Assembly (NCBI GenBank): GCA_036252695.1
Contig: GCA_036252695.1_4122.1
Direction: 5' to 3' (one strand)
Length of the DNA: 64,000 nt
Source of the DNA: a phage
Shown here: positions 35,272 to 54,594 of the stretch, piece by piece
Layout of the letters: each line of letters begins with the position of its first letter
Numbering within the stretch: position 1 is the stretch's first letter
Program-made: the position numbers and the translations under genes
The notes under the pieces: generated by a model
Database searches by the model: none
The model's input: only the letters and a program-made list of their open reading frames with translations
What the model was told of the DNA's origin: nothing

Positions 35272-35634
35272 ATGGCGACCCAAATCAATAAAATTATTGC
35301 TAACCTGGTCAACTTCCGTGAAGAGATGAAAGGTCTTCCGGCTGAAACGGTAAAAATTCACATTTCAGCTTATCGGGAACTTATTACAATGTTGCCGCTT
35401 AAGCGTGAACAATACGCCGCTACCGTGATGCTTGATGCGATGATCCATAAGATGATCGCCAGTGATTTAACGATGGTTTATCAGTATATGGGCGAAAATT
35501 TCGCGGTGTATAGTAAACCAGTACCAGGAATGGAAAGTACAGAAGTATTACACGGTTTAAATTTAAAACAAGATGCATGGGATAATATGCCTCGTTTCCT
35601 GGTATGGGCTGACAGTGGCAAAATTTACGAATAA
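35272..35634 (+). CDS. hypothetical early protein
   Basis: Start moved to Met downstream of promoter and leader hairpin (track ORF starts inside -10 box). Confidence 0.55.
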   Translation: MATQINKIIANLVNFREEMKGLPAETVKIHISAYRELITMLPLKREQYAATVMLDAMIHKMIASDLTMVYQYMGENFAVYSKPVPGMESTEVLHGLNLKQDAWDNMPRFLVWADSGKIYE

Positions 35635-35648
35635 GTTTAATAAAGTAC

Positions 35649-35707
35649 TTGCAAACTAAGTTTAAAAGCGTATAATGTTTTACATCAGGTGGGGAATAGT
35701 TCCCCAC
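35649..35707 (+). promoter_or_regulatory. early-type promoter plus leader hairpin
   Basis: TTGCAA 35649..35654, TATAAT 35671..35676, hairpin gtggggaa-tag-ttccccac 35689..35707. Confidence 0.65.
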
Positions 35708-35727
35708 TATATAAGAGGATTAAAAAA

Positions 35728-35967
35728 ATGGCTAAATCAAAAATGTTCTTAGGTCACAAAAACAAAACTCATTGGAATGTAAGCCTTTGGATTAATAACG
35801 ATGAGGCATTGTATCGGCTGGCCCAGGACTTTATTGCCGCCAATACTAATCGTAATGATGCGGCCCGTCATATGATGCTATTTTTAGAACAGACTGGGCA
35901 AGATAAAACTCCAGACGGCTTTAAGTATAGCACTACTGCGATCCGTGCGGCGATGGTTGGAATGTAA
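35728..35967 (+). CDS. hypothetical early protein (paralog of 37770..38009)
   Basis: SD aagagga; shares GHKNKTHWNVSLWINN...TPDGFKYSTTAIRAAMVGM with 37770 gene. Confidence 0.65.
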   Translation: MAKSKMFLGHKNKTHWNVSLWINNDEALYRLAQDFIAANTNRNDAARHMMLFLEQTGQDKTPDGFKYSTTAIRAAMVGM

Positions 35968-36055
35968 TAGAATAGAATTTATTTAAAGTACTATTGCACG
36001 GTGATAGTACTTTATAATAGTGTTTTATTCATACACCAACGATAAGGGCAACAGC

Positions 36056-36322
36056 ATGAATATTAAGTATTTTGCGACGCGTGAACAAGCTCGGATCGCC
36101 GCACGCCAGGACGGGGCAACGTTTAAAGATATGGGCGTACAATCGGAACGTGGTAAACGTTGGGCCATTGTAAAGCGTAGTACCGCCAGATCATTACAGT
36201 ACTGGTTAGCGGCCTTAAAAAGTCCCGATAGTGTATCGCGACGAGTGGTAGAAATAAAGCTCGACCGAAAGGGCAACCGCGTGACCGTGTACCGTACTAA
36301 AAAGATTGCAGTACTTGAATAA
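36056..36322 (+). CDS. hypothetical early protein (paralog of 49098..49493)
   Basis: Shares FATREQARIAAR..TFKDMG..RWA..RKGNRVTVY with 49098 gene. Confidence 0.6.
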   Translation: MNIKYFATREQARIAARQDGATFKDMGVQSERGKRWAIVKRSTARSLQYWLAALKSPDSVSRRVVEIKLDRKGNRVTVYRTKKIAVLE

Positions 36323-36329
36323 AAAGTAC

Positions 36330-36389
36330 TTGCAAACTATGTTTAATGGCGTATAATGTTTTACATCGAGAGCGGGAACACTTCCCGCC
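36330..36389 (+). promoter_or_regulatory. early-type promoter plus leader hairpin
   Basis: TTGCAA 36330..36335, TATAAT 36352..36357, hairpin agcgggaacacttcccgc 36371..36389. Confidence 0.65.
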
Positions 36390-36409
36390 TATAACCTGGA
36401 GTAATAAAA

Positions 36410-36640
36410 ATGACTAATATGTATATGACTGAAGTTAAAACTGTAAAAGATACTACCACGAATAAAACTACTTACTTACAGCGGATCTGCGGTGTATGGC
36501 AACGTATCAGCAAATCAAAGTACTATAAATTAACATCATATGCAAACCGTTCGGATTCATTCAGTACTGAAATAAAAGGTAATAAAGTACACCAATACGG
36601 CACTTATTATTATTATAGCCTGGACGCGATTGCAGTATAA
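36410..36640 (+). CDS. hypothetical early protein
   Basis: 76-aa ORF with SD ggag. Confidence 0.55.
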   Translation: MTNMYMTEVKTVKDTTTNKTTYLQRICGVWQRISKSKYYKLTSYANRSDSFSTEIKGNKVHQYGTYYYYSLDAIAV

Positions 36641-36887
36641 GCAGTTTACAAATCTTTACAATTGCCGGTATTGACTTATTTTGTCAGTACTGGCATAATG
36701 TATTCATTGGCAGATAAGCCGTAGCCCATAGGGTGCGGGAGTGTATCTATAGAAAAAGTAGTTTAGTATAGTTACAATTGTGCACCCGGTGGGTTAGCTG
36801 TTGTCATGGGGTATATTATGCCAGTACTTGATAATGCTGTCAATACTTTTTTAATATTCAGTACTGAAAACTATTTTTAAAAAGTAC

Positions 36888-36915
36888 TTGCAAACTATGT
36901 TTAAAGGCGTATAAT
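36888..36915 (+). promoter_or_regulatory. early-type promoter (upstream of structured element)
   Basis: TTGCAA 36888..36893, TATAAT 36910..36915. Confidence 0.6.
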
Positions 36916-36924
36916 GTTTTACAT

Positions 36925-37004
36925 CAGGACGGGGAACGAAATAAGTAACTTCCCGTTAAGTAGCCCAGGAGTAAGGCACACGAAAAACTCCCCTGATAAA
37001 ATAG
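36925..37004 (+). ncRNA. candidate structured RNA element / long leader (copy 1)
   Basis: ~80 nt between two tandem promoters; near-identical copy at 47900..47979 (3 substitutions) while flanks diverge; internal complementary arms (cgggga..tcccg; cagg..ctcccctg). Confidence 0.4.
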
Positions 37005-37005
37005 T

Positions 37006-37035
37006 TTGACAAATGTTTTTTTAAAAGCGTATAAT
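37006..37035 (+). promoter_or_regulatory. sigma70-type promoter
   Basis: TTGACA 37006..37011, 18-nt spacer, TATAAT 37030..37035. Confidence 0.6.
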
Positions 37036-37067
37036 ACTTACATCAACTACTGAATGAGGGTTACAAA

Positions 37068-37679
37068 ATGAAAACTATCACTACTACTACTTATGTTATG
37101 GATTTTTCTGAATTGAACGCAGAACAAAAAACGTCAGCTATCGAACTGGTTCGGGATCGTGAGCGTTCATGCGGTGATTATTTCTTTTCTGAGGGCGTAT
37201 ACGAATACTATAAAGAAACAATTTTGCCGGAGTATGGCATTGATGACGCTGATTTGCAATTCAGTGGTTTTTGGTCGCAAGGTGACGGTGCATCAATTAG
37301 TACTGACCACGTTGACGCAGTGAAGTTTTTACGTAAGGTAAGAGCATTAACTAAGTATCGCTCAATCCGGCACCTGCTGAATGAAGATGATTTGGCGATG
37401 AGTGTAAAGCGTTATCACTACCACTACTCGCATGAGAATACTGTAAGCGGGTACATTGAATCGGCTTACACTGATTTAACCGCAAAACAAGAAACGTTAG
37501 TTAATGAGCTTGAGGAACTACTCACTGACACTATTCGTGAATTGTCCCGCAAGTTGTACCGTGATTTAGAGAATGCATATGAGGATCAATTCACTACTGA
37601 AAACATTACGGCACTGATTGAGGGTAACGAATATCAATTCAATGTTATTGATGGCGTAGTAGAATCAATCGAATATTAA
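37068..37679 (+). CDS. hypothetical protein (203 aa)
   Basis: ORF with SD gaggg; E. coli-like codons. Confidence 0.7.
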   Translation: MKTITTTTYVMDFSELNAEQKTSAIELVRDRERSCGDYFFSEGVYEYYKETILPEYGIDDADLQFSGFWSQGDGASISTDHVDAVKFLRKVRALTKYRSIRHLLNEDDLAMSVKRYHYHYSHENTVSGYIESAYTDLTAKQETLVNELEELLTDTIRELSRKLYRDLENAYEDQFTTENITALIEGNEYQFNVIDGVVESIEY

Positions 37680-37769
37680 TTTAAAAAGTACTTGCAAACT
37701 AAGTTTAAAAGCGTATAATACTTTATATCGAGGCGGGGAGTGGTTCCCCGCTCAAACGAGGATTTAAAA

Positions 37770-38009
37770 ATGGCTAGTACTAAAACTTACAACGGACACA
37801 AAAACAAAACTCATTGGAATGTAAGCCTTTGGATTAATAACGGTGAGTCATTGTATCGGCTTGCTCAAAGTTGCATCGCACAAAGTAGAACTAAAGATAT
37901 TGCAGCGGAATGTATGTACCGCAGATTAAAAGCCAACGGTACTACTACAACGCCGGACGGCTTTAAGTATAGCACTACTGCGATCCGTGCTGCAATGGTT
38001 GGAATGTAA
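37770..38009 (+). CDS. hypothetical early protein (paralog of 35728..35967)
   Basis: Promoter TTGCAA/TATAAT (37714..37719) and hairpin 37734..37751 upstream. Confidence 0.65.
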   Translation: MASTKTYNGHKNKTHWNVSLWINNGESLYRLAQSCIAQSRTKDIAAECMYRRLKANGTTTTPDGFKYSTTAIRAAMVGM

Positions 38010-38067
38010 TATTCAGTACTGTAACAATGGCGGGGAATGGTTCCCGCCTTTATTGAGGGTTTATCTA

Positions 38068-38328
38068 ATGAGTAAAGTAATTAACTATACAGTACTAAGC
38101 AAGTCATTATCTATCAGTCATTGCACCGATGGTTATTGGCTATTTGATGAAACGCGTGGCATGAATTTAGCTATGCGTGCAAAAACTGCTGAGGCGGCGT
38201 ATATTCAAGCACTGGAATACTACCAGGAACGTTTAAAGGAAGTAGAAGAAGATTATAAAAGCCTCAAAGCGAAAGTAGATCATTTCGTCGGTCAATTCAT
38301 CGAGGAAGACGACGACAAACAATATTGA
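38068..38328 (+). CDS. hypothetical early protein
   Basis: Start after hairpin ggcggggaatggttcccgcc (38029..38048) and SD gaggg. Confidence 0.55.
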   Translation: MSKVINYTVLSKSLSISHCTDGYWLFDETRGMNLAMRAKTAEAAYIQALEYYQERLKEVEEDYKSLKAKVDHFVGQFIEEDDDKQY

Positions 38329-38336
38329 AAAAGTAC

Positions 38337-38396
38337 TTGCAATTAGTTTCAAGTACTGTATAATGGTTTACATCAAAGGGGGAAATGGTTCTCCCT
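38337..38396 (+). promoter_or_regulatory. early-type promoter plus leader hairpin
   Basis: TTGCAA 38337..38342, TATAAT 38359..38364, hairpin agggggaaatggttctccct 38377..38396. Confidence 0.6.
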
Positions 38397-38414
38397 GGTA
38401 ATGAGGAAAATAAA

Positions 38415-38636
38415 ATGGCTAATATCACTACTCTTTCCCAACTGGAAGCACTGGTTAAATCTATGCGGGAACATGCCGACAAAATCGGCGTACAAGATCC
38501 AGCCGTTTGCTTCTGCGACGAATTGAATGATGATACACTGGTAATAGCAGAAGTCCAGGACGTTTCTAACTATTCCTCGCGTTACACTGGCGGCGTAGCA
38601 AATAAAGGTGACTTCTGTTTATACCTTACAAAATAA
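38415..38636 (+). CDS. hypothetical early protein
   Basis: Start at Met after leader hairpin; SD gagga. Confidence 0.55.
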   Translation: MANITTLSQLEALVKSMREHADKIGVQDPAVCFCDELNDDTLVIAEVQDVSNYSSRYTGGVANKGDFCLYLTK

Positions 38637-38640
38637 CAAC

Positions 38641-38671
38641 GCGGGGAGATAATAACTCCCCGTTACTTTTT
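38641..38671 (+). terminator. intrinsic terminator
   Basis: cggggag-ataataa-ctccccg followed by T run. Confidence 0.55.
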
Positions 38672-38804
38672 CAGTACTGAATCATTTAATAGACGGATCT
38701 ATGCACCCGGTGGGTTAGTGACTGTTTCGTCTTGATGTAGTAATTATGCCAGTACTGGATGCACTTGTCAACAATTATTTTTCAAATACTTTTTATTAAA
38801 ATAC

Positions 38805-38858
38805 TTGCAATTAGTTTTTAAACGCGTATAATGTTTTGCATAGGGGGAGCGGTTCCCC
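38805..38858 (+). promoter_or_regulatory. early-type promoter plus leader hairpin
   Basis: TTGCAA 38805..38810, TATAAT 38827..38832, hairpin gggggagcggttcccc 38843..38858. Confidence 0.6.
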
Positions 38859-38879
38859 TGGTAACTAAGGAATAATAAA

Positions 38880-39137
38880 ATGCTTGAACAAATCAAATCA
38901 ACGTCTGCGAATGTAACGGGAACGGTAGCACACTTTACTAGTGATGAATCGCGGGGCGTTCCCTATTGTGCTGTACATGTAAACACTGAGGGTAACTACT
39001 GGTTTACGGTTTACGGATCATATTCATTTGGACGGCCAGGGCATCAAAAAATTCTGGATAAAGTACAACCAACGGGTAAAAATATCACTGCCGAAATGTT
39101 TTATAAAAATCATAAAGTACTTGATAATAGTTTTTAG
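38880..39137 (+). CDS. hypothetical early protein
   Basis: 85-aa ORF, SD aagga. Confidence 0.6.
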   Translation: MLEQIKSTSANVTGTVAHFTSDESRGVPYCAVHVNTEGNYWFTVYGSYSFGRPGHQKILDKVQPTGKNITAEMFYKNHKVLDNSF

Positions 39138-39199
39138 TACTGTATAATATTTTACATCGCAAGGGGGAGCGGTTCCCCCTGGTAACTAAGGATAATCAA

Positions 39200-39499
39200 A
39201 TGAAAATTGCAATCATCGCCCTGGCTTTATCTGTTTCCTCTTTCGCTGTTAATGCGTCATTAGATGTAAGTAGTGAAAAATTCATTCAGTGCACTGTTGC
39301 AATGACCGATGAAAGAACTGGCGAGATTGTATTAAAGGATTTAGAGATCCAGCCAGAAGCATTTAAAAACGGGCCGTTCCATGAAGAAGACGAAAAAGGT
39401 AGCACGACAATTTATTACGATGCAAGTACTAAACGCGGTTCGGTCACTGTTATGGATACTGAGAAAGTAACTCATACTGGCGTTATTAATTGCCGTTGA
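39200..39499 (+). CDS. small secreted/periplasmic protein (predicted signal peptide)
   Basis: N-term MKIAIIALALSVSSFAVNA-S fits signal peptidase I pattern; promoter and hairpin upstream. Confidence 0.6.
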   Translation: MKIAIIALALSVSSFAVNASLDVSSEKFIQCTVAMTDERTGEIVLKDLEIQPEAFKNGPFHEEDEKGSTTIYYDASTKRGSVTVMDTEKVTHTGVINCR

Positions 39500-39520
39500 T
39501 AGATACTACGGGGTAACATC

Positions 39521-39751
39521 ATGACTAAGCGAATTGTTTTACTTAACGAAAGCAGTACTACACAACTACTTAACGCCGTGCATTATGATATTGAAACGAG
39601 CGTTAATCTTATCAGTACTGTAGTACTATTGGACACTGGAAAGGTCGCCAATGATAAAGCGATTGCAGGTATATTAACGGATCTTGAGCCTGGTAGCAGT
39701 GCACCAATAACGTTAAATGGTAAAGTGTTTAATATTTTACTCACTGATTAA
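39521..39751 (+). CDS. hypothetical protein
   Basis: 76-aa ORF; followed by terminator. Confidence 0.5.
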   Translation: MTKRIVLLNESSTTQLLNAVHYDIETSVNLISTVVLLDTGKVANDKAIAGILTDLEPGSSAPITLNGKVFNILLTD

Positions 39752-39756
39752 GTACA

Positions 39757-39780
39757 TAGCCCACCTGGTGGGCTTTTTTG
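39757..39780 (+). terminator. intrinsic terminator
   Basis: agcccacc..ggtgggct stem then TTTTTT. Confidence 0.7.
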
Positions 39781-39984
39781 TTTTTGTAGTATCGTAGTAC
39801 TGAGATACTTTAAAAATAGTTTTAAAAAAGTAGTTGACATTACCACAAAAAGGCGTAGAATGTATTACATCAAGACGGGGAGCACTAAGTAGACCGCCAG
39901 TAAGTCGAACGAAAAACTGGACACGTCGAGAAAACTTTGATACACTAATAAACGTAAACTAAACTTTAATTGAGGATTTATAAA

Positions 39985-40467
39985 ATGGCTAATGTAAAAT
40001 CATTCATCAAAGCACTGGTAGCAAATGAAACTAACGTAGCGGCAGAGATCCTGGCTGAACTGGATAACGATACCATGAAAGCGGTACGCAATAATTTTAA
40101 CATCGCTTACAGTACTGCGAAAGAACTACAAGCAAATAAAGCGGCAGAAATTGAAGCGGCAAAGGCGGCCCGTGAAGCAGAACTACAAGCAACAATTGAA
40201 AGTATCCAGGCGGCAGTAGTTGGATTGGATCTGGAAGTAGTTACAGAGATGGCACAAAAAGCCCTGGCGGTTAAGTATGGGGAAGACAAGCCAGAAGTAA
40301 AAGCCAAAAAATGGATTCAGGAACGCGTAGCGGTAGTACTGGACAACGGGGAAGAATATCTGATTCCGGTGCGTGGTAACTGCATTGCGGTAGTACTGGA
40401 TGCGATTAACTCCAGTGGTATGACTCGCGAGGAATGGATCGAAGCTCATCGCAAAGTGGAAGCATAA
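39985..40467 (+). CDS. hypothetical protein (Ala/Glu-rich, predicted helical)
   Basis: Start MANVKSF after SD gagga; long structured leader from promoter at ~39836. Confidence 0.6.
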   Translation: MANVKSFIKALVANETNVAAEILAELDNDTMKAVRNNFNIAYSTAKELQANKAAEIEAAKAAREAELQATIESIQAAVVGLDLEVVTEMAQKALAVKYGEDKPEVKAKKWIQERVAVVLDNGEEYLIPVRGNCIAVVLDAINSSGMTREEWIEAHRKVEA

Positions 40468-40488
40468 CAATTAAAGTACTGAATCACT

Positions 40489-40515
40489 AGCCCACTGCAT
40501 AAGTGGGCTTTTTTG
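40489..40515 (+). terminator. intrinsic terminator
   Basis: gcccact-gcataa-gtgggc then TTTTTTG. Confidence 0.7.
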
Positions 40516-40751
40516 TGTTTATCGTTTACCAGGCCACCAGCACCGCCTAGAATCGATTCTAACGCATTAAACTGATTATCTGATGCATCGCCCTAGCTGG
40601 TGGCGTTAAGGTCGTTAGAATGCGATTGAGAGCGTTTAAAGTATTTTGCAAAAAGTAATAAAAAGTACTTGCACGATTAAGAGATTAGCGTATAATGTTT
40701 TACATCGAGAGGGGGAAACGGTTCTCCTTCCAAATCAAAGGAATTAAAACA

Positions 40752-40979
40752 ATGGCTATCGTAATCACTCGCGTAACTGGTACTACTGGCAATTCTTCTA
40801 CTGTTGCTGTAATTACTAATAAGAAAGGTGCGGAACTACATTTTGCAATGTATAACTGGTCAGTTGATGAGTTTGGTCAGTACGCTAGTGTAGAATACAT
40901 TGAAACCTATCAAGTGCCGTCGATTAGTTTAACTGATTTGGGCGTTGAGCGTATCCTTTGCCTGGATGAATTAAATTAA
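40752..40979 (+). CDS. hypothetical early protein
   Basis: Start MAIVITRV after promoter and hairpin gggggaaacggttctcc. Confidence 0.55.
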   Translation: MAIVITRVTGTTGNSSTVAVITNKKGAELHFAMYNWSVDEFGQYASVEYIETYQVPSISLTDLGVERILCLDELN

Positions 40980-41065
40980 AAAAGTACTTGCAAAGTAAAT
41001 CGAATAAAGTATAATACATTACATCAAGGGGAGAAATGGTTCTCCCTGATAATGAGGAAACTAAT

Positions 41066-41209
41066 ATGAAAACTTGTCAATGTGGTAAAAAATCTATTAC
41101 TGGTTTAAAGCGGGGCGTTGCTCTTTGTCAGTACCATTATAATTTACAAGTATGGGGTAAAGAATGGGCCGACCAGGTGGAAGCAGCAAAGAAAGCAAAA
41201 AGTAAGTAA
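41066..41209 (+). CDS. small Cys-containing protein (47 aa; CQCG..CQYH)
   Basis: Hand-translated ORF behind promoter and hairpin with SD gagga; below track cutoff. Confidence 0.4.
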   Translation: MKTCQCGKKSITGLKRGVALCQYHYNLQVWGKEWADQVEAAKKAKSK

Positions 41210-41228
41210 AAATATTATCACAGTACTA

Positions 41229-41257: not shown

Positions 41258-41288
41258 AGATTTTATCAAGACAACTGAGGAAAATAAA

Positions 41289-48382: not shown

Positions 48383-48404
48383 TAACAAAGAGAGAGAAAT
48401 AAAA

Positions 48405-48587: not shown

Positions 48588-48674
48588 GTATTGACAAAGT
48601 ATCTTAGTACTGTATAATAGTTTACATCAAGTGAGGGGAATGGTTCCCCTCCTAACAAAAAGAGAGAAATTAAA

Positions 48675-48998
48675 ATGACTATGATCCTTACCCAGAAAGT
48701 AGAAATGAAAATTGTAACTTCCTTTGACATTAAAGTTAATCGGTGGACTGATAGCCACGGCAATACTTACCACTCATGCTACGTGTCTGCATTGATTGGT
48801 GACCGCTGGGAAGACCTGGGACATGAAACCTTTACTTACGGTTACGGTACACAAGGCGAATACACGGGCTTGGAGATCATTAAAGAAACCGTTATAGGTT
48901 TCAACCCGAAAGAAAAAGTTATTCACCGCATCGAGGAAGAGATCAACAAAGAAATTACAGTTCGTTACTACGATGTAAAACGTAAGAAAGACATGTAA
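48675..48998 (+). CDS. hypothetical protein (paralog of 41591..41914)
   Basis: Shares RWTDSHGNTYHSCYVS motif. Confidence 0.65.
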   Translation: MTMILTQKVEMKIVTSFDIKVNRWTDSHGNTYHSCYVSALIGDRWEDLGHETFTYGYGTQGEYTGLEIIKETVIGFNPKEKVIHRIEEEINKEITVRYYDVKRKKDM

Positions 48999-49097
48999 TA
49001 GAATCCATTTAAAGTACTATTTGACATTGCCCAGATAGTACTTTATAATAGACTCTAACTTGTAGTACTAATTAACTTAACTAATAGGATGTACACC

Positions 49098-49493
49098 ATG
49101 ATTACTAAATTCTTCGCTACCCGTGAACAAGCTCGCATCGTTGCCCGTGAAGAAGGTGAAACATTTAAAGACATGGGCAAAGATGCACCGAAAGGACAAC
49201 GCTGGGCGGTACAGTTCAAAGAGATCTCTGATATTGTGAATTCACCTGAACCAGTACTTACTGAAGCAGAACTGAAGAAAGCTCAAGAACTGGCTGAAGT
49301 ACTGAACGCTCAAGATGACTTCTTGAAAGGTTCTGATATTCAAGTACAAGTGAATAGTAATGCATGGACTCACGCGGATCACCTGGCAAACCTTAAGCGT
49401 CCAAGTGAACTGATTCGTAACCAGAAAGAGATTCGTCATGACCGTAAAGGAAACCGTGTAACAGTATACAGTAAACGCCGCCAGGTTATCTAA
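49098..49493 (+). CDS. hypothetical protein (paralog of 36056..36322)
   Basis: MITKFFATREQARIVAR..TFKDMG..RKGNRVTVY. Confidence 0.65.
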   Translation: MITKFFATREQARIVAREEGETFKDMGKDAPKGQRWAVQFKEISDIVNSPEPVLTEAELKKAQELAEVLNAQDDFLKGSDIQVQVNSNAWTHADHLANLKRPSELIRNQKEIRHDRKGNRVTVYSKRRQVI

Positions 49494-49555
49494 TAACTTT
49501 GCAGTACTAACAACACGGCGGGAACTATTCCCGCCTTTTTTATAGGATAAACAAA

Positions 49556-49810
49556 ATGATTAAGGTTCAACTATCAAACGATAATGTATTACGGGTACAC
49601 TATAAAGCCCCACAGAGAATCATCACAAAGGCCGTACAGCTTGCTAATGAGTTTATTAATGGTAGTCTATTGCCTAGGAAGTTAAGCAACGGGAAACTAC
49701 GTGTTATCGATGTAGACACTAACAATAGAATAGTGATCGAGAGTACTGGAAAAATTAATCTATATGAACACCAACAATACAATAAAAAAATAAAACTAAT
49801 ATCACGTTGA
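49556..49810 (+). CDS. hypothetical protein
   Basis: 84-aa ORF after hairpin ggcgggaactattcccgcc plus T run. Confidence 0.5.
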   Translation: MIKVQLSNDNVLRVHYKAPQRIITKAVQLANEFINGSLLPRKLSNGKLRVIDVDTNNRIVIESTGKINLYEHQQYNKKIKLISR

Positions 49811-49868
49811 CAGTACTCAAATGTTTTAGTATTATGTATCTATACCAACACAGAGAGAGAGAAACAAA

Positions 49869-50087
49869 ATGAAATTATCTAAAATCGAAAAGAAAACTAT
49901 TGATGAAGCAGTGAAGCACGGTTATACCTTTCGTAATGATTCACACTTCACTAGTTTTCAACAGGGAAACCGTACCATCAAAAAACTCATTGATAAAGGT
50001 TTACTCACTAAGGTTGATAACGGGAACGGTGTAGAATATCAACCGACAGAAGACGCATTATCACTAAAGAAATATTCTATTATCTAA
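49869..50087 (+). CDS. hypothetical protein
   Basis: 72-aa ORF with SD gagaga. Confidence 0.55.
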   Translation: MKLSKIEKKTIDEAVKHGYTFRNDSHFTSFQQGNRTIKKLIDKGLLTKVDNGNGVEYQPTEDALSLKKYSII

Positions 50088-50144
50088 TTGACAGTACTCA
50101 AATGTTTTAGTACTATGTACGCATACCAACACGGGGAAAACAAA

Positions 50145-50387
50145 ATGATTACTTTAGAAAAACGTATCAAAGAGACTACAACGCTGGTGGAACTGTTAAC
50201 CGTTCTTAAATGCCGGGTAACTCCATTCAGTACACCGGACTTTATCAACATGGTGGACGTTAACGGTCGATATCGTATTGCGGTCGAACAAGGTACGGCA
50301 AAAGTATTCAGTACTAAAAATACGCGTGAAGTATTCCACGCAGTTCAAGTAAAAAAAGTAGTTGCCATTGATAGTAAAGTACTGTAA
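50145..50387 (+). CDS. hypothetical protein
   Basis: Start MITLEKR after SD gggga; upstream ~35 nt nearly identical to the region before 49869. Confidence 0.5.
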   Translation: MITLEKRIKETTTLVELLTVLKCRVTPFSTPDFINMVDVNGRYRIAVEQGTAKVFSTKNTREVFHAVQVKKVVAIDSKVL

Positions 50388-50418
50388 TATAGTTTCATTA
50401 ACTCAAGGAGTCAACACA

Positions 50419-51003
50419 ATGCGTAACTATACTAAATTCATCCGTTCACTTCATGCAATGGAAACCAACAAAGAGATCCTTTCAGCTTGTCGGTTAGCTG
50501 GACTGGAGATCGTCGGTGCGGGTTCTTCCCGTATTGTATTCGCTTTAAATGATCGGTTAGTGATTAAGGTCGCGAATTGTGATGCGGGTGTAGAACAAAA
50601 TGAAACTGAATGTAAGGTATGGAATTTTTTAGATTATGACCGTCCGCACCTTAAACAGTACTTTGCTAAAGTGCATATGCATTTATGCGATCCTGATAAT
50701 CTGTTTATTGTTATGGATCGTTTGAGTACTGCAAGCAAAGGCAGTGTAAAGCATGTAAACGCGTGCAATGAGTTAAAGTACAATATTAAACGTAATACGG
50801 TAGAACGCCATCACCATTTCGCTGATGCTCTCAATCACGTTGATGATACATTATCCACACTAACGATAAGAGATATCAGAAAACAGAATATCGGCCAGGA
50901 TCGCAACGGCTTGATTAAAGTACTTGATTACGGTTTAACCCGCAATATCTGGAATCAGTACTATAAAAAACGTGATGTTAACGCGATAACTATAACACGA
51001 TAA
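50419..51003 (+). CDS. protein-kinase-like protein (putative Ser/Thr kinase)
   Basis: Gly-rich loop VGAGSSRIV, VAIK-like VIKVA, catalytic-loop-like IRDIRKQN, DFG-like VLDYG, in the canonical order; strong SD aaggag. Confidence 0.6.
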   Translation: MRNYTKFIRSLHAMETNKEILSACRLAGLEIVGAGSSRIVFALNDRLVIKVANCDAGVEQNETECKVWNFLDYDRPHLKQYFAKVHMHLCDPDNLFIVMDRLSTASKGSVKHVNACNELKYNIKRNTVERHHHFADALNHVDDTLSTLTIRDIRKQNIGQDRNGLIKVLDYGLTRNIWNQYYKKRDVNAITITR

Positions 51004-51227
51004 AAAAGATTAAAAAAGGGATTGACTCCAGTCAGTCCCTTTGCTATTATATATTCATTGAGAGATAACTCACTGACCCATAGGGTGCGGAAGTGTATCT
51101 ATTATATAAGTATTCAGTACTGAAAACTATTTTATAAAAAGTACTTGCAAACTATCTCAATGAGCGTATAATGTTTTATATCGAGAGGGGGAAATGGTTC
51201 TCCCTGGTACTAAAAGGAATCAAGACG

Positions 51228-51449
51228 ATGACTACTATGACATGCGTTCACGCTTCAAATCTTCTGAATGATGCAGCATTTAAAGCAGGTGAAGAATATC
51301 AATGCTATCGGGATGAAAATAAAAAAGTTTTCGTCGTTGATGCTAACGGTTTCCATATTGAATTACAATCCGGCTTCACTGGTGTTGATGGTAAATCAGT
51401 ATGGGGCGTACAGGATGATAACGGTACATATCATTTTAAACGTAATTAA
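51228..51449 (+). CDS. hypothetical early protein
   Basis: Promoter, hairpin gagggggaaatggttctccct, SD aagga. Confidence 0.55.
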   Translation: MTTMTCVHASNLLNDAAFKAGEEYQCYRDENKKVFVVDANGFHIELQSGFTGVDGKSVWGVQDDNGTYHFKRN

Positions 51450-51533
51450 GTATTGACAAAGTATATCAGTACTGTATAATAGTTTACATCAAGGGGAGAA
51501 TAGCTCTCCCCACCAATAAAAGGAAACAAAATT

Positions 51534-51806
51534 ATGTCCAGCTACTCCGCTACTATGATTATTAAAGATATGAACGGTAATCCTACTTCTGCTGGTGGAT
51601 CATTTGGTAACATTAATTTAGATGGGCGGTTATCAATTGAATCAGCCATCAATGCAGCGAAAGAAGTTTTTAAGAATGAATGTACTGTAAGCAAACTGGA
51701 TTATATGGGCTTCGCTATCGAGAAAACTAATCGTTTTGTGGACTACAAAAAACCACTGATGATTGATACTAACCTGAAAGCAAACGAAGTGGAATACTTA
51801 TTATGA
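51534..51806 (+). CDS. hypothetical early protein
   Basis: Class-3 promoter, hairpin ggggagaatagctctcccc, SD aagga. Confidence 0.6.
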   Translation: MSSYSATMIIKDMNGNPTSAGGSFGNINLDGRLSIESAINAAKEVFKNECTVSKLDYMGFAIEKTNRFVDYKKPLMIDTNLKANEVEYLL

Positions 51807-51994
51807 CAGTAGAAGAAGTTAAAAAAGTACTGGCAGTACTACGCTATCATAATCATTGTAAGGTGAAGAATGATCCTGATTATCTTGATTCATCGCTGGA
51901 AGAGGATACACTACAAGCAATAAGCCATATGCAAAAAATGCTTAAGCGTATGACCGAAAAGAACAGGCCGGACTATATCGGAAATAAAATTTAA
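51803..51994 (+). CDS. hypothetical protein
   Basis: ATGA-coupled 63-aa ORF. Confidence 0.5.
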   Translation: MTVEEVKKVLAVLRYHNHCKVKNDPDYLDSSLEEDTLQAISHMQKMLKRMTEKNRPDYIGNKI

Positions 51995-52077
51995 AAAGTA
52001 CTTGCATTGTAAGTAAAACAAAGTATAATGTTTTACATAGGGGGAGATATCCTCCCCCACTAATAAGGAGTACTAAA

Positions 52078-52302
52078 ATGGCTAACTTTGATGAACTGAT
52101 GCGGGAAGTAGCTACCCTGGCAGAAGAGAAGAAATCATTTGATTCTATCTATAACACCGCTTACAGTGATTCAGTACTGGCATGTACTCAGGATCAAAAA
52201 GATGAACTGATCGCCACCTATCATGAAGCATGGAAGTATTACCGCCAATGGGAGAAAGAAGAAAGCGAGTCTACCATCAACGGCATCAATAATCTAATCT
52301 AA
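52078..52302 (+). CDS. hypothetical early protein
   Basis: Promoter, hairpin gggggagatatcctccccc, SD aaggag. Confidence 0.6.
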   Translation: MANFDELMREVATLAEEKKSFDSIYNTAYSDSVLACTQDQKDELIATYHEAWKYYRQWEKEESESTINGINNLI

Positions 52303-52377
52303 AGTTTTATTTCAGTACTATTGACAATGCGTGATAGTACTGATGTAATAACTTTACTAACTACAAGGGGAAACATA

Positions 52378-52635
52378 ATGGAACAGTTCACACAATATCG
52401 GGTAAATCCTCAAGCTATGGCCTACGTAGAAGACCATAAAACATTACCAGTACAGACACCAATCAAAGGCCGTATCTATCGTGCTATGCAGTGGAATAAC
52501 GCCTATAATGGCTATAAAGCGGTAGCGGCTGCAATGTACTTAGGGGATGGCGAATGGTTTGATCCAAATAATCCTGGTGCACTAGATAGTACTGAACAAA
52601 TGACATGGGCCGACTATATCGAAGATATTTCATAA
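52378..52635 (+). CDS. hypothetical protein
   Basis: Start MEQFTQYR after class-2 promoter and SD ggggaaa. Confidence 0.55.
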   Translation: MEQFTQYRVNPQAMAYVEDHKTLPVQTPIKGRIYRAMQWNNAYNGYKAVAAAMYLGDGEWFDPNNPGALDSTEQMTWADYIEDIS

Positions 52636-52723
52636 AAACTATTTGACAGTACTACAAGATAATGTATAATGTTTTACATAGAGCGGGGGAATAGTTCTCC
52701 CGCACCTTTAGGAGTAAAACATT

Positions 52724-52924
52724 ATGTCAATCGCTAACGAATTGGTTGCAGTACTGAATGAAGCAAAAGCCAACTGCATCGATGTACAGATCAAAGAGCT
52801 TGGCAATGGCTTGATCGGCTGTACTTGTACAGTGCAAACGGCTACCGATTATCGGGAAGTGGAATCACTCGAATCACTGGTACGGTATATTAAAATCCTG
52901 GTAGAAGATTGGAGAATCATCTAA
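52724..52924 (+). CDS. hypothetical early protein
   Basis: Promoter, hairpin gcgggggaatagttctcccgc, SD aggag. Confidence 0.55.
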   Translation: MSIANELVAVLNEAKANCIDVQIKELGNGLIGCTCTVQTATDYREVESLESLVRYIKILVEDWRII

Positions 52925-53182
52925 CAAAAAAGAATAAAAAAAAGGGATTGACTCCGGTCAGTCCCTTTGCTATTATATACGCATAGACAAAAACTAGCCC
53001 ACAGGGTGCAGAGAAGTATCTATAAGATAGTTAATAACGGTGAGTAACTATCTGCTGGTGGATGTAATGCCAGTACTCAAAACTATTTCAAAAAAAGTAT
53101 TGACAAAGTATATCAGTACTGAGATAATGTATCTCGTAGGGCGGCAATAGTGCAGCCCACCTCCAAAAGAGCGAGATATAAA

Positions 53183-53398
53183 ATGGCGTTAACCAAACAA
53201 GAAATTATCGACCGTATCAAAGAGTCAACTGGCTGGTATGTTGGGGACCGTTTAATTGTTAAAGTTCTCGATTATTCAAATAATCCTCTTGCACCGGAAC
53301 CAGTGGCATACAAATTATCCTGGATATCTGCGTTTAGCGGTAAGCGTGAAAGATGTGTGTACTATCCGAACACAGTCGGGCTACAGTTCTGTAAATAA
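53183..53398 (+). CDS. hypothetical protein
   Basis: Start MALTKQE after class-3 promoter and hairpin gggcggcaatagtgcagccc. Confidence 0.5.
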   Translation: MALTKQEIIDRIKESTGWYVGDRLIVKVLDYSNNPLAPEPVAYKLSWISAFSGKRERCVYYPNTVGLQFCK

Positions 53399-53498
53399 AT
53401 TTTAATAGAAAAAGTATTGACAAAGTATATCAGTACTGCAATAATGTATCTCGTAGGGCGGCAATGGTGCGACGGCCCACAAAGTTAGGAGATTCACC

Positions 53499-53825
53499 AT
53501 GAGTACTTCAATCGCTATCGTTAAAGCTTTCATCCGTACCAATTTCGACCGCATTACTGTTGATGGTAATGATCGGGAAGTAGAATACTCTTTCATTGTT
53601 GCACAAACCGCAAACGGTGCACGCTATATCTTAAACGATAGTGAAGCTAACCACTACTTCTATAATAAAGGATTACACTACATCCCTAGCGAAGTAGTCT
53701 ACAGTAAGATGAATAAGCTGGTAGACAAGATTAACGCTAAAGGTACTATCGATTTACAGTACTGGACCGAAACCGATCCAGAATACGGATCACATCGTTA
53801 CCTGAATCCAGGAATTAAAATGTAA
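53499..53825 (+). CDS. hypothetical protein
   Basis: 108-aa ORF, SD aggaga, class-3 promoter upstream. Confidence 0.6.
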   Translation: MSTSIAIVKAFIRTNFDRITVDGNDREVEYSFIVAQTANGARYILNDSEANHYFYNKGLHYIPSEVVYSKMNKLVDKINAKGTIDLQYWTETDPEYGSHRYLNPGIKM

Positions 53826-53914
53826 AAAGTACTTGCATTGTACTTAGAATCAAGTATAATGTTTTACATAGAGAGGGGGAAATGGTTCTCCCTCCTAAAT
53901 TAAGGAGTTTTATC

Positions 53915-54316
53915 ATGACCTTCTCAATCACTTCCTTCGCTGACGTTTTAGTACTGGCTCGGACTTTTGGTAAAGATGCACTGGAGTACGCTGTAAGTAA
54001 TGGCACTCTCCAACCGGAACAATGCCGCATCATTGGAAACTGCAAACGTTGGGCGGTATCCAATACTATTGCACTAGAAAACTTCAACGATGGTAACAAT
54101 GAGTATTCAGTTGATGCAGTATTCGAAGCCGTTGATCTTGGCGGTATCTATAACACTAACCTAAATGATGTGCGTATCGTTCGCACGGGGTTCGGTGCTT
54201 ATGATGTATCTATCCGTGAAGCTATGAACACCGGATACATTAGTAAGGACTTACTTGCTCACATCATGCAGCTATGGACGGAACGTAACGAAGCACGCAC
54301 TATCTTAGGGCTGTAA
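53915..54316 (+). CDS. hypothetical protein (133 aa)
   Basis: Promoter, hairpin gagagggggaaatggttctccctc, SD aaggag. Confidence 0.65.
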   Translation: MTFSITSFADVLVLARTFGKDALEYAVSNGTLQPEQCRIIGNCKRWAVSNTIALENFNDGNNEYSVDAVFEAVDLGGIYNTNLNDVRIVRTGFGAYDVSIREAMNTGYISKDLLAHIMQLWTERNEARTILGL

Positions 54317-54384
54317 GCATTACACATCACCAAACATCATAGGCCGCTCTCTAGCGGCCTTAACTATATCAGGAGGGCATACAT

Positions 54385-54594
54385 ATGTTCTATACAGTAT
54401 ACAGCGTTCTAGGTACTATTGCTGGCGTACATGATAACGTCAGTGATGCTATGCGTACAGTACTGCAACAGGTTCCACTAAAGCCTAAGACTGTTAAGCA
54501 GATGACAGCACGACTAACCAGGGCGACGGATGGCGTGGAAGTATGGCAGGACTACGGGGATACACAGATAATCGTTAGCGTAACGAAGGATTAA
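54385..54594 (+). CDS. hypothetical protein
   Basis: 69-aa ORF with SD aggagg; preceded by hairpin ggccgctctctagcggcc. Confidence 0.55.
   Translation: MFYTVYSVLGTIAGVHDNVSDAMRTVLQQVPLKPKTVKQMTARLTRATDGVEVWQDYGDTQIIVSVTKD

What the first reader, a model, noticed from the sequence alone, without database searches (positions are those of the whole stretch)
35272..54594. Compositional mosaic: early block is GC-richer with host-like codons; flanking arrays are AT-rich
By eye the 35-54.6 kb genes use CTG, CGT, CCG and GGC frequently, whereas the Fam-P, EYY and Fam-L arrays use AAT/ATA/TTA-rich codons. The boundaries coincide with the repeat region (33.2-35.2 kb) and with the repeat-bearing intergenic stretch at 54.6-54.8 kb, suggesting modules of different history or expression class.
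Basis: seen in the sequence. Interest (0 to 1): 0.45.

Follow-up and report, generated by a model that had tools for sequence, protein, structure and literature searches.

The report
GC-richer block is the phage terminal repeat
The GC-richer block is real and is the roughly 21-kb direct terminal repeat of a 121Q-like E. coli jumbo phage, a known feature carrying about 55 small genes, each with its own host-type promoter; its distinct composition goes with gene sharing with unrelated coliphages, which the flanks lack.

Summary
Window 35272-54594 has 38.3% GC, against 33.2% and 33.3% for the flanking small-gene arrays. CTG, CCG, CGT, CGC, GGC and ATC make up 10.1% of its codons, against 2.2-5.0% elsewhere. 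GC changepoints fall at 33244 and 54767.

These bracket window 33576-54746, which aligns end to end with the direct terminal repeat (DTR) of Asteriusvirus phages. [quoted passage not shown]

The DTR is 66% coding. It holds 43 near-consensus sigma-70 promoters, 11 of them perfect, against none perfect elsewhere in the window. About 24 of 40 leaders carry a GC-rich 5' stem-loop.

In fEgEco12 the DTR has the highest GC3 of the genome (0.366 against a median of 0.27). It does not share the avoidance of GATC, TCGA, CCGG and CGCG seen elsewhere.

"Host-like" is overstated:
- CGG is also enriched.
- GC3 stays far below E. coli (0.50-0.57).
- The DTR has no match in E. coli genomes.

The DTR matches 220 phage records, the flanks 37 and 36. 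The excess is rV5-like and phAPEC8-like coliphages, whose small-gene regions have similar codon usage.

Verdict: a known feature, probably an early host-takeover module, with a separate evolutionary history. Interest is moderate.

The parts
33576..54746 (+). Direct terminal repeat (DTR), 21,171 bp, present here as one collapsed copy. This is the GC-rich compositional domain.
   Evidence: The records of fEgEco12 and vB_Ec-M-J both begin at window 33576 (AGTAGGCAGAGG...). The DTR end motif GGGCGGGTAACCT|TAGCG lies at 54734-54746 and is identical in fEgEco12. The two copies in vB_Ec-M-J are 100% identical. The fEgEco12 DTR of 20,993 bp was confirmed by PhageTerm and restriction digests (PMC13070987). 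GC changepoints bracket it.
33576..35214 (.). Non-coding left end of the DTR, 38.1% GC. It holds many CAGTACTG palindromes, iteron-like GGCTA(G/A)ACG repeats at about 34380-34480, an orphan promoter at about 33940-33973, and two inverted copies of an 80-nt element at 34635-34714 and 34852-34931.
   Evidence: Sequence read directly. Repeat family D14. No CDS is annotated here in relatives. Function (packaging, replication or terminus) is inferred only.
35215..54594 (+). About 53-55 small ORFs (median 79 aa), all on the + strand, separated by gaps of 60-430 bp.
   Evidence: ORF calls agree with the annotation of fEgEco12 and vB_Ec-M-J. Of 30 proteins scanned, 28 match PHROGs; the only functional labels are DksA-like zinc finger, acetyltransferase and a weak DNA-ligase match, and the rest are of unknown function. 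Coding GC is 39.6%.
35630..35725 (+). Reference copy of the repeated intergenic cassette. Its order is A-tract, -35 (TTGCAA or TTGACA), N16-17 spacer, (T/C)GTATAAT, TTTTACAT, a GC-rich 5'-leader stem-loop of 7-9 bp, a Shine-Dalgarno site, then ATG. More than 30 copies occur across the DTR.
   Evidence: Repeat families D1-D10. Folding of 40 leaders found about 24 with a 5'-proximal hairpin of -11 to -16 kcal/mol, 15 of them with z<-2. The stems differ in sequence but keep pairing.
44285..52670 (+). Run of perfect 12/12 sigma-70 promoters (TTGACA-N16/17-TATAAT) at 44285, 44870, 45982, 47018, 47981, 48320, 48591, 49021, 51453 and 52643. One more lies at 37006.
   Evidence: There are 11 perfect matches on the + strand of the DTR and none elsewhere in the window on either strand. 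Those assigned to a gene lie 21-58 nt upstream of its start codon.
45718..45975 (+). DksA/TraR C4 zinc-finger protein, a candidate binder of the RNA polymerase secondary channel.
   Evidence: Pfam PF01258, E=1e-11. PHROG 54.
46039..46395 (+). GNAT acetyltransferase, shared at 91% nucleotide identity with the phAPEC8-like Shigella phage SF1-1.
   Evidence: Pfam PF00583, E=4e-9. BLAST of L014 against the window.
50419..51003 (+). Protein-kinase-like protein. The match is weak and below the Pfam threshold.
   Evidence: Pfam Pkinase E=0.003, 17.5 bits against a cut-off of 31.7. Relatives annotate it as a Ser/Thr kinase.
54595..54813 (+). Right boundary stretch. It holds a long hairpin AAAAAGTCAAGG...CCTTGACTTTTT at about 54623-54688, the DTR end at 54746, and a TTGACT-N16-TATTAT promoter at 54786-54813 that heads the Fam-L array.
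   Evidence: Sequence. Promoter scan. Changepoint at 54767.
28241..33232 (+). EYY array of 22 tightly packed paralogs of about 61 aa. It is the right-end unique DNA that precedes the right DTR copy. GC is 33.2% but GC3 is 0.37.
54814..60790 (+). Fam-L array of 26 overlapping paralogs of about 73 aa, the first unique DNA after the left DTR copy. GC is 33.3% and rare codons make up 10.8%.

Best explanation
The GC-richer block is the roughly 21.2-kb direct terminal repeat (window 33576-54746) of an Asteriusvirus (121Q/PBECO4-like) E. coli jumbo phage. The window carries one collapsed copy, flanked by the right-end unique DNA (EYY array) and the left-end unique DNA (Fam-L array).

What it does (inferred). 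It is the phage's immediate-early, host-takeover-type module. It holds about 55 small genes. About 40 have a sigma-70-type promoter (at least 9 of 12) within 120 nt upstream, often with an A-tract and a GC-rich 5' leader stem-loop. These would be read by unmodified host RNA polymerase as soon as the DNA enters.

Why its composition differs (inferred). The module has its own evolutionary history. Its gene cassettes are exchanged with the small-gene regions of unrelated large virulent coliphages (rV5-like, phAPEC8-like, Justusliebigvirus), which are GC-richer. The DTR therefore sits between the Asteriusvirus bulk and that shared pool. It has more GCC, GGC, CGN, CCG, CTG and ATC, and less AGA, ATA, CTA and ACA. 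It shows none of the bulk genome's counter-selection of GATC, TCGA, CCGG and CGCG. It still obeys the family-wide ban on GCGC. Selection for translation by the naive host tRNA pool may add to this.

Shown: the DTR identity and boundaries, the promoter and cassette architecture, the compositional statistics, and the cross-lineage nucleotide sharing. Inferred: early timing, the direction and rate of gene flux, and flux as the cause of the composition.

Sub-confidences: DTR identity about 0.97; early sigma-70-driven module about 0.85; gene flux as the main cause of the composition about 0.5.
For: DTR identity.
- Both termini map to conserved junction sequences.
- The DTR is annotated in vB_Ec-M-J (1-21525, two identical copies).
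- It was confirmed experimentally in fEgEco12.
- GC changepoints bracket it.

Early module.
- The DTR + strand has 43 promoters at 10 or more of 12 (2.0 per kb), against 0.2-1.25 per kb elsewhere. Eleven are perfect, against none elsewhere.
- Cassette repeats and 5' hairpins.
- Only 66% of the DTR is coding, against 93% or more in the arrays.
- It encodes a DksA/TraR protein, a GNAT and a kinase-like protein.
- PA5oct DTR genes are early by RNA-seq. RpoD promoters were predicted in and near the CBB terminal repeat.

Distinct composition.
- The DTR has the highest GC3 of the fEgEco12 genome (MWU p=1e-12).
- It has the largest tetranucleotide distance of all 21-kb chunks, 0.325.
- Against a synonymous-shuffle null, the rest of the genome avoids GATC (0.52), TCGA (0.65), CCGG (0.50) and CGCG (0.46). 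The DTR does not (1.09, 1.01, 0.78, 1.03).

Separate history.
- 220 matching phage records against 37 and 36 for the flanks.
- One 9-kb SF1-1 locus holds homologs of at least six DTR genes at 66-91% identity, in a different order.
- DTR codon usage correlates as well with those loci (r=0.77 and 0.64) as with its own genome (0.77). Diagnostic codons match them, for example CGG at 1.02 against 0.62 and 1.03 in those loci and 0.02 in the bulk.
- The per-amino-acid GC3 shift correlates at r=0.83 with the shift between the pool and the bulk.
- Genes behind sigma-70 promoters outside the DTR keep bulk GC3, 0.29.
- The distant relative fENko-Kae01 shows the same direction.
Against: - No transcript data exist for any Asteriusvirus, so 'early' rests on promoter consensus and on a distant relative.
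- DTR genes with detected cross-genus homologs are no GC-richer than those without (GC3 0.348 against 0.347, p=0.70). That classification was incomplete.
- The uniform shift, and its recurrence in fENko-Kae01 with largely different genes, also fits a regional or selective cause.
- The resemblance to other phages' small-gene regions could reflect a shared selective regime rather than shared ancestry.
- The direction of transfer is unknown.
- The control for expression class used only the first gene behind unverified predicted promoters.
Confidence: 0.6

Rival explanations
1. Expression class alone. DTR genes are translated first, before phage tRNAs and other modifications are available, so selection has tuned their codons to the naive host tRNA pool. 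Horizontal exchange is incidental.
For: - Rare E. coli codons fall to 1.9% of DTR codons, against 6.4-10.8% elsewhere. CTG, CCG, CGY, GGC and ATC rise.
- The RSCU correlation with E. coli is 0.40-0.47, against 0.18 or less elsewhere.
- Among G/C-ending codons the shift tracks E. coli usage (r=0.55, p=0.002).
- Phage tRNAs include Thr-UGU (two copies) and a CAU-anticodon tRNA. ACA and ATA are depleted in the DTR.
- The same trend appears in fENko-Kae01.
- The shift is uniform across DTR genes.
Against: - CGG is rare in E. coli, yet it rises 50-fold.
- There is no shift in Asp, Glu, Phe, Lys, Asn or Val, where E. coli also has preferences.
- In a joint regression host usage is marginal (t=1.8) and G/C-ending dominates (t=5.7).
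- CAI against highly expressed E. coli genes is no higher than in the late structural genes (0.39-0.41 against 0.40-0.44).
- Genes behind sigma-70 promoters outside the DTR are not shifted.
- Codon selection does not explain the loss of GATC, TCGA and CGCG avoidance measured against a synonymous-shuffle null.
Confidence: 0.22
2. Position effect of terminal redundancy. The two DTR copies recombine in every cycle, and GC-biased gene conversion or repair raises GC throughout the repeat, coding or not.
For: - The non-coding left 1.6 kb of the DTR is also 38.1% GC, and DTR intergenic DNA is 34.8-35.6% against 28-34% elsewhere.
- G/C-ending is the best single predictor of the codon shift.
- The domain edges coincide with the DTR ends within tens to hundreds of bases.
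- The effect recurs in fENko-Kae01.
Against: - Six amino-acid families show no rise in GC3 at all. A uniform W-to-S bias would not give that.
- Much of the non-coding GC comes from functional-looking GC-rich hairpins.
- The family-specific pattern mirrors that of other phages' small-gene regions (r=0.83).
- The idea does not explain the nucleotide sharing with unrelated phages.
Confidence: 0.08
3. The block is a recently acquired piece of host (E. coli) or prophage DNA, hence 'host-like'.
For: Only the relative shift toward E. coli codon usage.
Against: - There is no megablast match in 5,426 complete E. coli genomes.
- GC is 38% against 51-53% in E. coli, and GC3 is 0.36 against 0.50-0.57.
- GCGC is absent here although it is over-represented in E. 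coli.
- The block is conserved as the DTR across Asteriusvirus.
Confidence: 0.01

Closest known systems
Direct terminal repeats of Asteriusvirus and RaK2-like jumbo phages (fEgEco12 20,993 bp; vB_Ec-M-J 21,525 bp; fENko-Kae01 19,736 bp; CBB 22,456 bp; PA5oct about 39 kb)
   Same: The left and right junction sequences are the same as in fEgEco12 and vB_Ec-M-J. The gene order matches (small spaced genes, DksA-like, GNAT, kinase-like protein near the right end). The neighbours match too: an RCC1-like array and small genes before, a tight paralog array after.
   Different: The best relative covers only 80% of this DTR at 93.9% identity, with gene-level presence and absence differences. The papers I read did not mention the compositional distinctness, the lack of palindrome avoidance, or the sharing with unrelated coliphages.
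Phage T5 pre-early (first-step-transfer) region in its roughly 10-kb terminal repeat (from my own knowledge of the T5 literature)
   Same: Genes carried in a long DTR, read by host RNA polymerase from strong sigma-70 promoters, and presumed to act first in host takeover.
   Different: Nothing here is the size of T5 A1 (556 aa), and the 30 proteins scanned hit no family carrying a T5 pre-early annotation. Two-step injection and an injection stop signal are untested. In T5 the first-entering DNA is the part that lacks certain restriction sites; here the DTR is the part that does not avoid sites.
Bacillus phage SPO1 host-takeover module in its 13-kb terminal redundancy (from my own knowledge)
   Same: A cluster of about two dozen or more very small genes within the terminal redundancy, each with strong early promoters and ribosome-binding sites. 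It has an unusually high non-coding fraction.
   Different: The host is different and no sequence relationship was tested. This module is about twice as large, and its cassettes include a conserved 5' leader hairpin.
Small-gene (putative early or accessory) regions of rV5-like (Vequintavirus) and phAPEC8-like coliphages
   Same: They share genes at 66-96% nucleotide identity and have the same spaced small-ORF layout. Part of the promoter cassette is shared. Codon usage is similar.
   Different: Those regions are GC-richer (39.4% and 42.4%) and contain GCGC freely (46 and 16 sites in 9 kb). Whether they lie in terminal repeats was not checked.

Membership tests
Asteriusvirus / RaK2-like direct terminal repeat | The left boundary coincides with the mapped physical left terminus of related virion DNA. 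| tested here: met
   fEgEco12 (termini confirmed by PhageTerm and restriction digests) and vB_Ec-M-J both start at window 33576, with an identical sequence AGTAGGCAGAGGAAGTCTGCC.
Asteriusvirus / RaK2-like direct terminal repeat | The right boundary coincides with the end of the repeat in relatives. | tested here: met
   GGGCGGGTAACCT|TAGCGACTTCG lies at window 54746/54747 and is the same junction as at fEgEco12 position 20993/20994. In vB_Ec-M-J (21525/21526) the same junction carries one extra T.
Asteriusvirus / RaK2-like direct terminal repeat | The segment is present twice per virion chromosome (double read depth, two identical copies). | not testable with these tools
   The window holds a single collapsed copy and no reads are available. 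In vB_Ec-M-J the two deposited copies are 100% identical.
Immediate-early / host-takeover module carried in a terminal redundancy (T5 pre-early, SPO1 type) | Dense strong host-type (sigma-70) promoters on the coding strand, one per gene or small gene group. | tested here: met
   43 sites at 10 or more of 12, 11 of them perfect, against none perfect elsewhere. 30 of 56 DTR ORFs have a site at 10 or more of 12 within 120 nt upstream, and 40 of 55 at 9 or more.
Immediate-early / host-takeover module carried in a terminal redundancy (T5 pre-early, SPO1 type) | Transcribed first after infection by unmodified host RNA polymerase. | not testable with these tools
   Only indirect support: PA5oct DTR genes are early by RNA-seq.
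Immediate-early / host-takeover module carried in a terminal redundancy (T5 pre-early, SPO1 type) | Homologs of the characterised T5 (A1, A2, dmp) or SPO1 (gp37-60) takeover proteins. | tested here: not met
   30 DTR proteins were scanned against PHROGs and 10 against Pfam. The only functional labels were DksA/TraR, GNAT acetyltransferase, a weak kinase-like match and a weak PHROG DNA-ligase match; everything else was of unknown function. No ORF approaches the size of A1. This is an analogy, not family membership.
Immediate-early / host-takeover module carried in a terminal redundancy (T5 pre-early, SPO1 type) | Two-step DNA entry with an injection stop signal (T5). | not testable with these tools
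   Repeats and hairpins exist at both DTR edges, but their function is unknown.
Horizontally exchanged compositional island | Composition and oligonucleotide signature atypical for the resident genome. | tested here: met
   Highest GC3 and the largest tetranucleotide distance of all 21-kb chunks. It lacks the genome's palindrome avoidance.
Horizontally exchanged compositional island | Close nucleotide homologs in unrelated lineages that the flanking DNA lacks. | tested here: met
   220 matching records against 37 and 36 for the flanks. The extra records are rV5-like, phAPEC8-like and Justusliebigvirus phages.
Horizontally exchanged compositional island | Mobility machinery (integrase or transposase, att sites). 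| tested here: not met
   No such family appeared among the 30 proteins scanned, and the window has no tRNA genes. Any exchange is presumably by homologous or illegitimate recombination between co-infecting phages (inference).

The most novel reading that the evidence does not exclude
Position in the virion chromosome, not gene age, may exempt the terminal repeat from the counter-selection of GATC, TCGA, CCGG and CGCG that shapes the other 330 kb. Because the DTR is present twice, a break inside one copy could be rescued by recombination with the other. Alternatively, the DTR may act before host nucleases or MutH-type systems engage. Terminal redundancy would then serve as a 'safe harbour' where newly captured, unameliorated genes can persist. 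The absolute, family-wide absence of GCGC (Asteriusvirus, fENko-Kae01 and RaK2, DTR included) would mark a different and much stronger constraint, for example a phage-encoded or universally met GCGC-specific nuclease.
Probability: 0.12. Interest if true: 0.7.

Novelty: new member of a known kind. Interest (0 to 1): 0.4.

Why it matters
It replaces a vague 'compositional mosaic' with a concrete genome feature. The physical ends of this phage chromosome can be read from composition and junction motifs, even in a collapsed assembly.

It defines a set of about 40 promoter-leader-gene cassettes that are prime candidates for host-takeover and anti-defence functions in a poorly understood jumbo-phage genus.

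It suggests that terminal repeats of large virulent coliphages are the place where genes are traded between otherwise unrelated lineages. That matters for annotation, for phage-therapy safety assessment and for engineering.

The contrast in restriction-type site avoidance between the DTR and the rest, and the total lack of GCGC, give testable handles on which nucleases these phages evolve against.

Tried and rejected
- tRNA scan of the window found no genes, so no local tRNA explanation exists. The six tRNAs of fEgEco12 lie at 291-295 kb. Their anticodons (Thr-UGU, CAU) fit the ACA and ATA depletion in the DTR, but this is too thin to carry the argument.
- Rfam scan of 33.0-55.2 kb gave only one sub-threshold hit (bglG-cis-reg, 30 bits against a gathering score of 80). 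I treated it as chance.
- Pfam and PHROG scans of 30 DTR proteins gave almost no functional labels.
- Host origin was rejected: no E. coli match.
- The idea that the block is simply the GC-richest part of the genome was rejected. The structural region at 133-160 kb of fEgEco12 is as GC-rich, but through GC1 and GC2.
- Uniform GC pressure was rejected as the sole cause, because six codon families do not shift.
- I tested whether DTR genes with known cross-genus homologs are GC-richer than the rest. They are not. The classification was incomplete, so this is inconclusive.
- A literature search for GCGC avoidance in these phages found nothing relevant.

Full report
**What the window is.** A megablast of the flagged block against GenBank phages hits 219 records. 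The best are E. coli jumbo phages of the 121Q/PBECO4 group (Asteriusvirus, 348-386 kb), led by fEgEco12 at 79% coverage and 93.7% identity. The window has no tRNA genes. Its layout is:
- a run of 18 minus-strand paralogs of about 380 aa (Fam-P, annotated in relatives as RCC1-like 'regulator of chromosome condensation')
- a tight array of genes of about 61 aa (EYY)
- about 2 kb of non-coding repeats
- the flagged block of spaced small genes
- a second tight array (Fam-L)

**Checking the observation.**

| Region | Coordinates | GC |
|---|---|---|
| Flagged block | 35272-54594 | 38.3% |
| EYY array | 28241-33232 | 33.2% |
| Fam-L array | 54814-60790 | 33.3% |
| Fam-P array | 7287-28156 | 35.9% |
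| Repeat region | 33233-35214 | 38.1% |
| Whole window | 1-64000 | 35.7% |

Likelihood changepoints for GC fall at 33244 (support 33017-34240) and 54767 (support 54548-55011). Both exceed every one of 500 shuffles of 300-bp blocks.

At codon level the block's RSCU values are CTG 1.42, CCG 1.21, CGT 2.72, CGC 1.20, GGC 1.09 and ATC 1.40. The other blocks are much lower for most of these. ATA (0.27), AGA (0.61) and AGG (0.13) are depleted.

Per gene, the six 'preferred' codons make up 10.1% of codons against 2.2-5.0% elsewhere. Six rare codons make up 1.9% against 6.4-10.8%. P values run from 1e-5 to 1e-9 against each block. Tetranucleotide signatures separate the block from all others (delta* 0.36-0.43, against 0.175 between its own halves).

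Four caveats apply:
- The GC-rich domain begins at about 33.2-33.6 kb, not at 35.27 kb.
- GC3 alone does not separate the block from EYY (0.356 against 0.370) or Fam-L (0.322). The arrays are AT-rich mostly through GC1 and GC2, because they are rich in Leu, Tyr, Asn, Lys and Ile and poor in Ala and Gly.
- TTA is higher than in the block only in Fam-P.
- AAT hardly differs.

**What it is.** The record of vB_Ec-M-J annotates 'Direct Terminal Repeats' at 1-21525. This ends exactly between the homolog of the last gene of the block and the first gene of the tight array. The same record carries a second, 100% identical copy at its right end, preceded by the RCC1-like array and the small-gene array, as in the window.

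Both fEgEco12 and vB_Ec-M-J start at window 33576 (AGTAGGCAGAGGAAGTCTGCC). The repeat ends at GGGCGGGTAACCT|TAGCG, which is window 54746/54747, and fEgEco12 has the identical junction. The fEgEco12 paper reports a DTR of 20,993 bp from PhageTerm, confirmed by restriction digests. It states that the few mapped relatives all have repeats of about 20 kb (PMC13070987).

The compositional domain is therefore the DTR, window 33576-54746 (21,171 bp), present here as a single collapsed copy.

**Anatomy.** The DTR is only 66% coding, against 93% or more in the arrays.
- *Promoters.* On its + strand there are 43 sigma-70-type promoters with at least 10 of 12 consensus positions. Eleven are perfect TTGACA-N16/17-TATAAT. 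The remaining 43 kb of the window has none perfect on either strand. Those assigned to a gene sit 21-58 nt upstream of its start codon.
- *Cassette.* Repeat analysis shows that the intergenic regions are copies of one cassette: A-tract, AGTACTTGCAA or TATTGACA, N16, (T/C)GTATAAT, TTTTACAT, a GC-rich stem-loop, a Shine-Dalgarno site, then ATG.
- *Leaders.* Folding of 40 predicted leaders gives a 5'-proximal hairpin of 7-9 bp (-11 to -16 kcal/mol) in about 24 of them. The stems differ in sequence but stay paired. A second promoter class (TTGACA-N17-CATAAT) lacks the hairpin.
- *Proteins.* The only recognisable ones are a DksA/TraR zinc finger, a GNAT acetyltransferase and a weak kinase-like protein. 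One protein also has a weak PHROG DNA-ligase match. Nearly all the rest fall in PHROGs of unknown function, and two of the 30 have no match.

In the related Pseudomonas jumbo phage PA5oct, most genes in the 39-kb DTR are highly transcribed early by RNA-seq (PMC7318152). For phage CBB, RpoD-type promoters with UP elements were predicted in and next to the terminal repeat and interpreted as early host-takeover genes (PMC5259590). I infer that this DTR is an immediate-early module. No transcript data exist for an Asteriusvirus.

**Whole-genome context.** I assembled fEgEco12 from 50-kb fetches. Its unique genome is 35.6% GC, the DTR is 38.5% and the rest 35.5%. Among 21-kb windows only the tail-fibre and structural region at 133-160 kb is GC-richer, at 39.5%. 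That region owes its GC to GC1 and GC2, and its GC3 is 0.19-0.26. The DTR has the highest GC3 in the genome, 0.366 against a median of 0.275 (MWU p=1e-12).

**Is it 'host-like'?** Only relatively.
- The correlation of DTR RSCU with E. coli genes is 0.37-0.47. For the rest of the phage it is 0.06-0.24.
- CAI against ribosomal-protein genes is no higher than in the late genes.
- The shift is family-specific. It is large in Ala, Gly, Arg, Pro, Ile, Ser, Thr and Cys, and nil in Asp, Glu, Phe, Lys, Asn and Val.
- The shift includes CGG, whose RSCU goes from 0.02 to 1.02 although it is rare in E. coli.
- In a joint regression G/C-ending dominates (t=5.7) over host usage (t=1.8).
- The DTR has no match in 5,426 E. 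coli genomes.

**A deeper difference: oligonucleotide avoidance.** The null keeps each protein sequence and each gene's codon usage fixed and shuffles synonymous codons. Against it, the rest of the genome strongly avoids four palindromes and the DTR does not.

| Site | Rest of genome, obs/exp (z) | DTR, obs/exp |
|---|---|---|
| GATC | 0.52 (-23) | 1.09 |
| TCGA | 0.65 (-19) | 1.01 |
| CCGG | 0.50 (-8) | 0.78 |
| CGCG | 0.46 (-7.5) | 1.03 |

The window shows the same pattern in raw counts. GCGC is absent everywhere, including the DTR. It has 0 sites in the 64-kb window against about 64 expected from base composition. It has 0 in the called genes of fEgEco12 against about 203 expected under the synonymous-shuffle null.

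**History.** The DTR matches 220 phage records. An equal-length left flank matches 37 and the right flank 36, all of them jumbo relatives. The extra 180 or so records are unrelated coliphages of 135-152 kb (Vequintavirus/rV5-like, Phapecoctavirus/phAPEC8-like, Justusliebigvirus) at 77-96% nucleotide identity.

One 9-kb locus of Shigella phage SF1-1 holds homologs of at least six DTR genes, in a different order, plus part of the promoter cassette. These lie in a region with the same spaced small-gene layout. A Vequintavirus locus is similar. The two loci are 39.4% and 42.4% GC. They do not avoid GATC, and they contain GCGC freely.

DTR codon usage correlates with these loci (r=0.77 and 0.64) as well as with its own genome (0.77), and the diagnostic codons match them. 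Across amino-acid families, the DTR-minus-bulk GC3 shift correlates at r=0.83 with the pool-minus-bulk shift.

By contrast, genes directly behind strong sigma-70-type promoters elsewhere in fEgEco12 have bulk-like GC3, 0.29. The distant relative fENko-Kae01 (DTR 19,736 bp) shows the same direction more weakly:
- GC 37.3% against 34.0%
- CTG RSCU 1.10 against 0.16
- AGA RSCU 0.57 against 1.76
- promoters at 11 or more of 12: 23 against 6

**Interpretation.** The best-supported account has three parts. The block is the DTR. It is the phage's early, cassette-built host-takeover module. It is compositionally distinct mainly because it exchanges gene cassettes with a pool shared among large virulent coliphages, so it has not acquired the Asteriusvirus bulk signature apart from the strict GCGC ban.

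Translational selection for the naive host tRNA pool may contribute. Rare codons are depleted, and ACA and ATA are low while the phage encodes Thr-UGU and CAU tRNAs. It cannot explain CGG, the unshifted families, or the palindrome result.

GC-biased conversion in the recombining repeat fits the GC-rich non-coding left end, but not the family-specific pattern.

One weak point remains. DTR genes with and without detected foreign homologs have the same GC3, so a regional or selective cause is not excluded.

**Comparison with known systems.** This is a member of the known DTR class of Asteriusvirus and RaK2-like phages, and the junction-level tests are met. It works like the T5 pre-early region and the SPO1 host-takeover module, in that small genes with strong host-type promoters lie inside a terminal redundancy. 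It is not a homolog of either, because no characterised takeover proteins were found. The papers I read do not describe the compositional separation, the missing palindrome avoidance, or the cross-genus sharing. I therefore rate it as a new member of a known kind, with some new descriptive detail and moderate interest.

Noticed in passing
whole window 1-64000; also fEgEco12 (L001, L006-L012), fENko-Kae01 L013:1-50000 and RaK2 L016:1-35001: The tetranucleotide GCGC never occurs. The window has 0 sites against about 64 expected. The called genes of fEgEco12 have 0 against about 203 expected under synonymous shuffling. fENko-Kae01 has 0 in 50 kb and RaK2 has 0 in 35 kb. Homologous genes in rV5-like and phAPEC8-like phages contain GCGC freely. 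A literature search found no mention of this. It suggests a very strong GCGC-specific nuclease constraint across the family.
   Followed up: partly
window-wide, densest in 33400-54746: AGTACT and the 8-mer palindrome CAGTACTG are heavily over-represented. AGTACT occurs 133 times in the DTR against 6.8 expected, and 115 against 11.2 to its left. CAGTACTG occurs 38 times against 0.2 expected. In the DTR it often sits in the promoter spacer (AGTACTGTATAAT) or just upstream of the -35 element (AGTACTTGCAA). The motif is also enriched in fENko-Kae01 and RaK2. It may be a binding site for a phage regulator.
   Followed up: partly
43718-43802, 47724-47808, 51013-51097, 52939-53023 (+); inverted copies at 34635-34714, 34852-34931, 38670-38749: A repeated non-coding element of 80-200 nt. 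It has a 12-bp hairpin that embeds a TTGACT -35 box (AAAGGGATTGACTCCGGTCAATCCCTTT), a TATTAT -10 box, and a conserved GCCCACCGGGTGC core. Copies in the left part of the DTR are in the opposite orientation. These are candidate small-RNA genes; PA5oct has ncRNAs in its DTR. Rfam found nothing.
   Followed up: no
34380-34480: Iteron-like run of GGCTAGACG / GGCTAAACG / TCTGGA units in the non-coding left end of the DTR. It could be an origin, a packaging site or a protein-binding array.
   Followed up: no
38385, 41036, 47066 (gene starts): The first ATG of these ORFs lies in the loop of the conserved 5' leader hairpin (GGGGAGAAATGGTTCTCCCC). For 38385 the fEgEco12 annotation uses the same start. 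A downstream ATG preceded by a Shine-Dalgarno site (in frame at 38415 for the first gene) is the more likely start.
   Followed up: partly
7287-28156 (- strand): Eighteen tandem paralogs of 245-407 aa (Fam-P), annotated in relatives as RCC1-like 'regulator of chromosome condensation' or DNA condensation proteins. GC2 is very high (0.46) and GC3 very low (0.23).
   Followed up: no
28241-33232: The EYY array has a codon usage of its own. GC3 is 0.37, as high as the DTR. It prefers TTC, TAC and CAC, yet AGA (RSCU 3.2), CTA, GTA and GCA are also strongly used. Tyr makes up 10% of residues.
   Followed up: no
hits H35 and others: Nine records named 'Campylobacter phage' match DTR genes at about 87% nucleotide identity. 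The one listed (A150, 146 kb) is in the size range of the rV5-like and phAPEC8-like coliphages that dominate the other hits, so the host label may be wrong.
   Followed up: no
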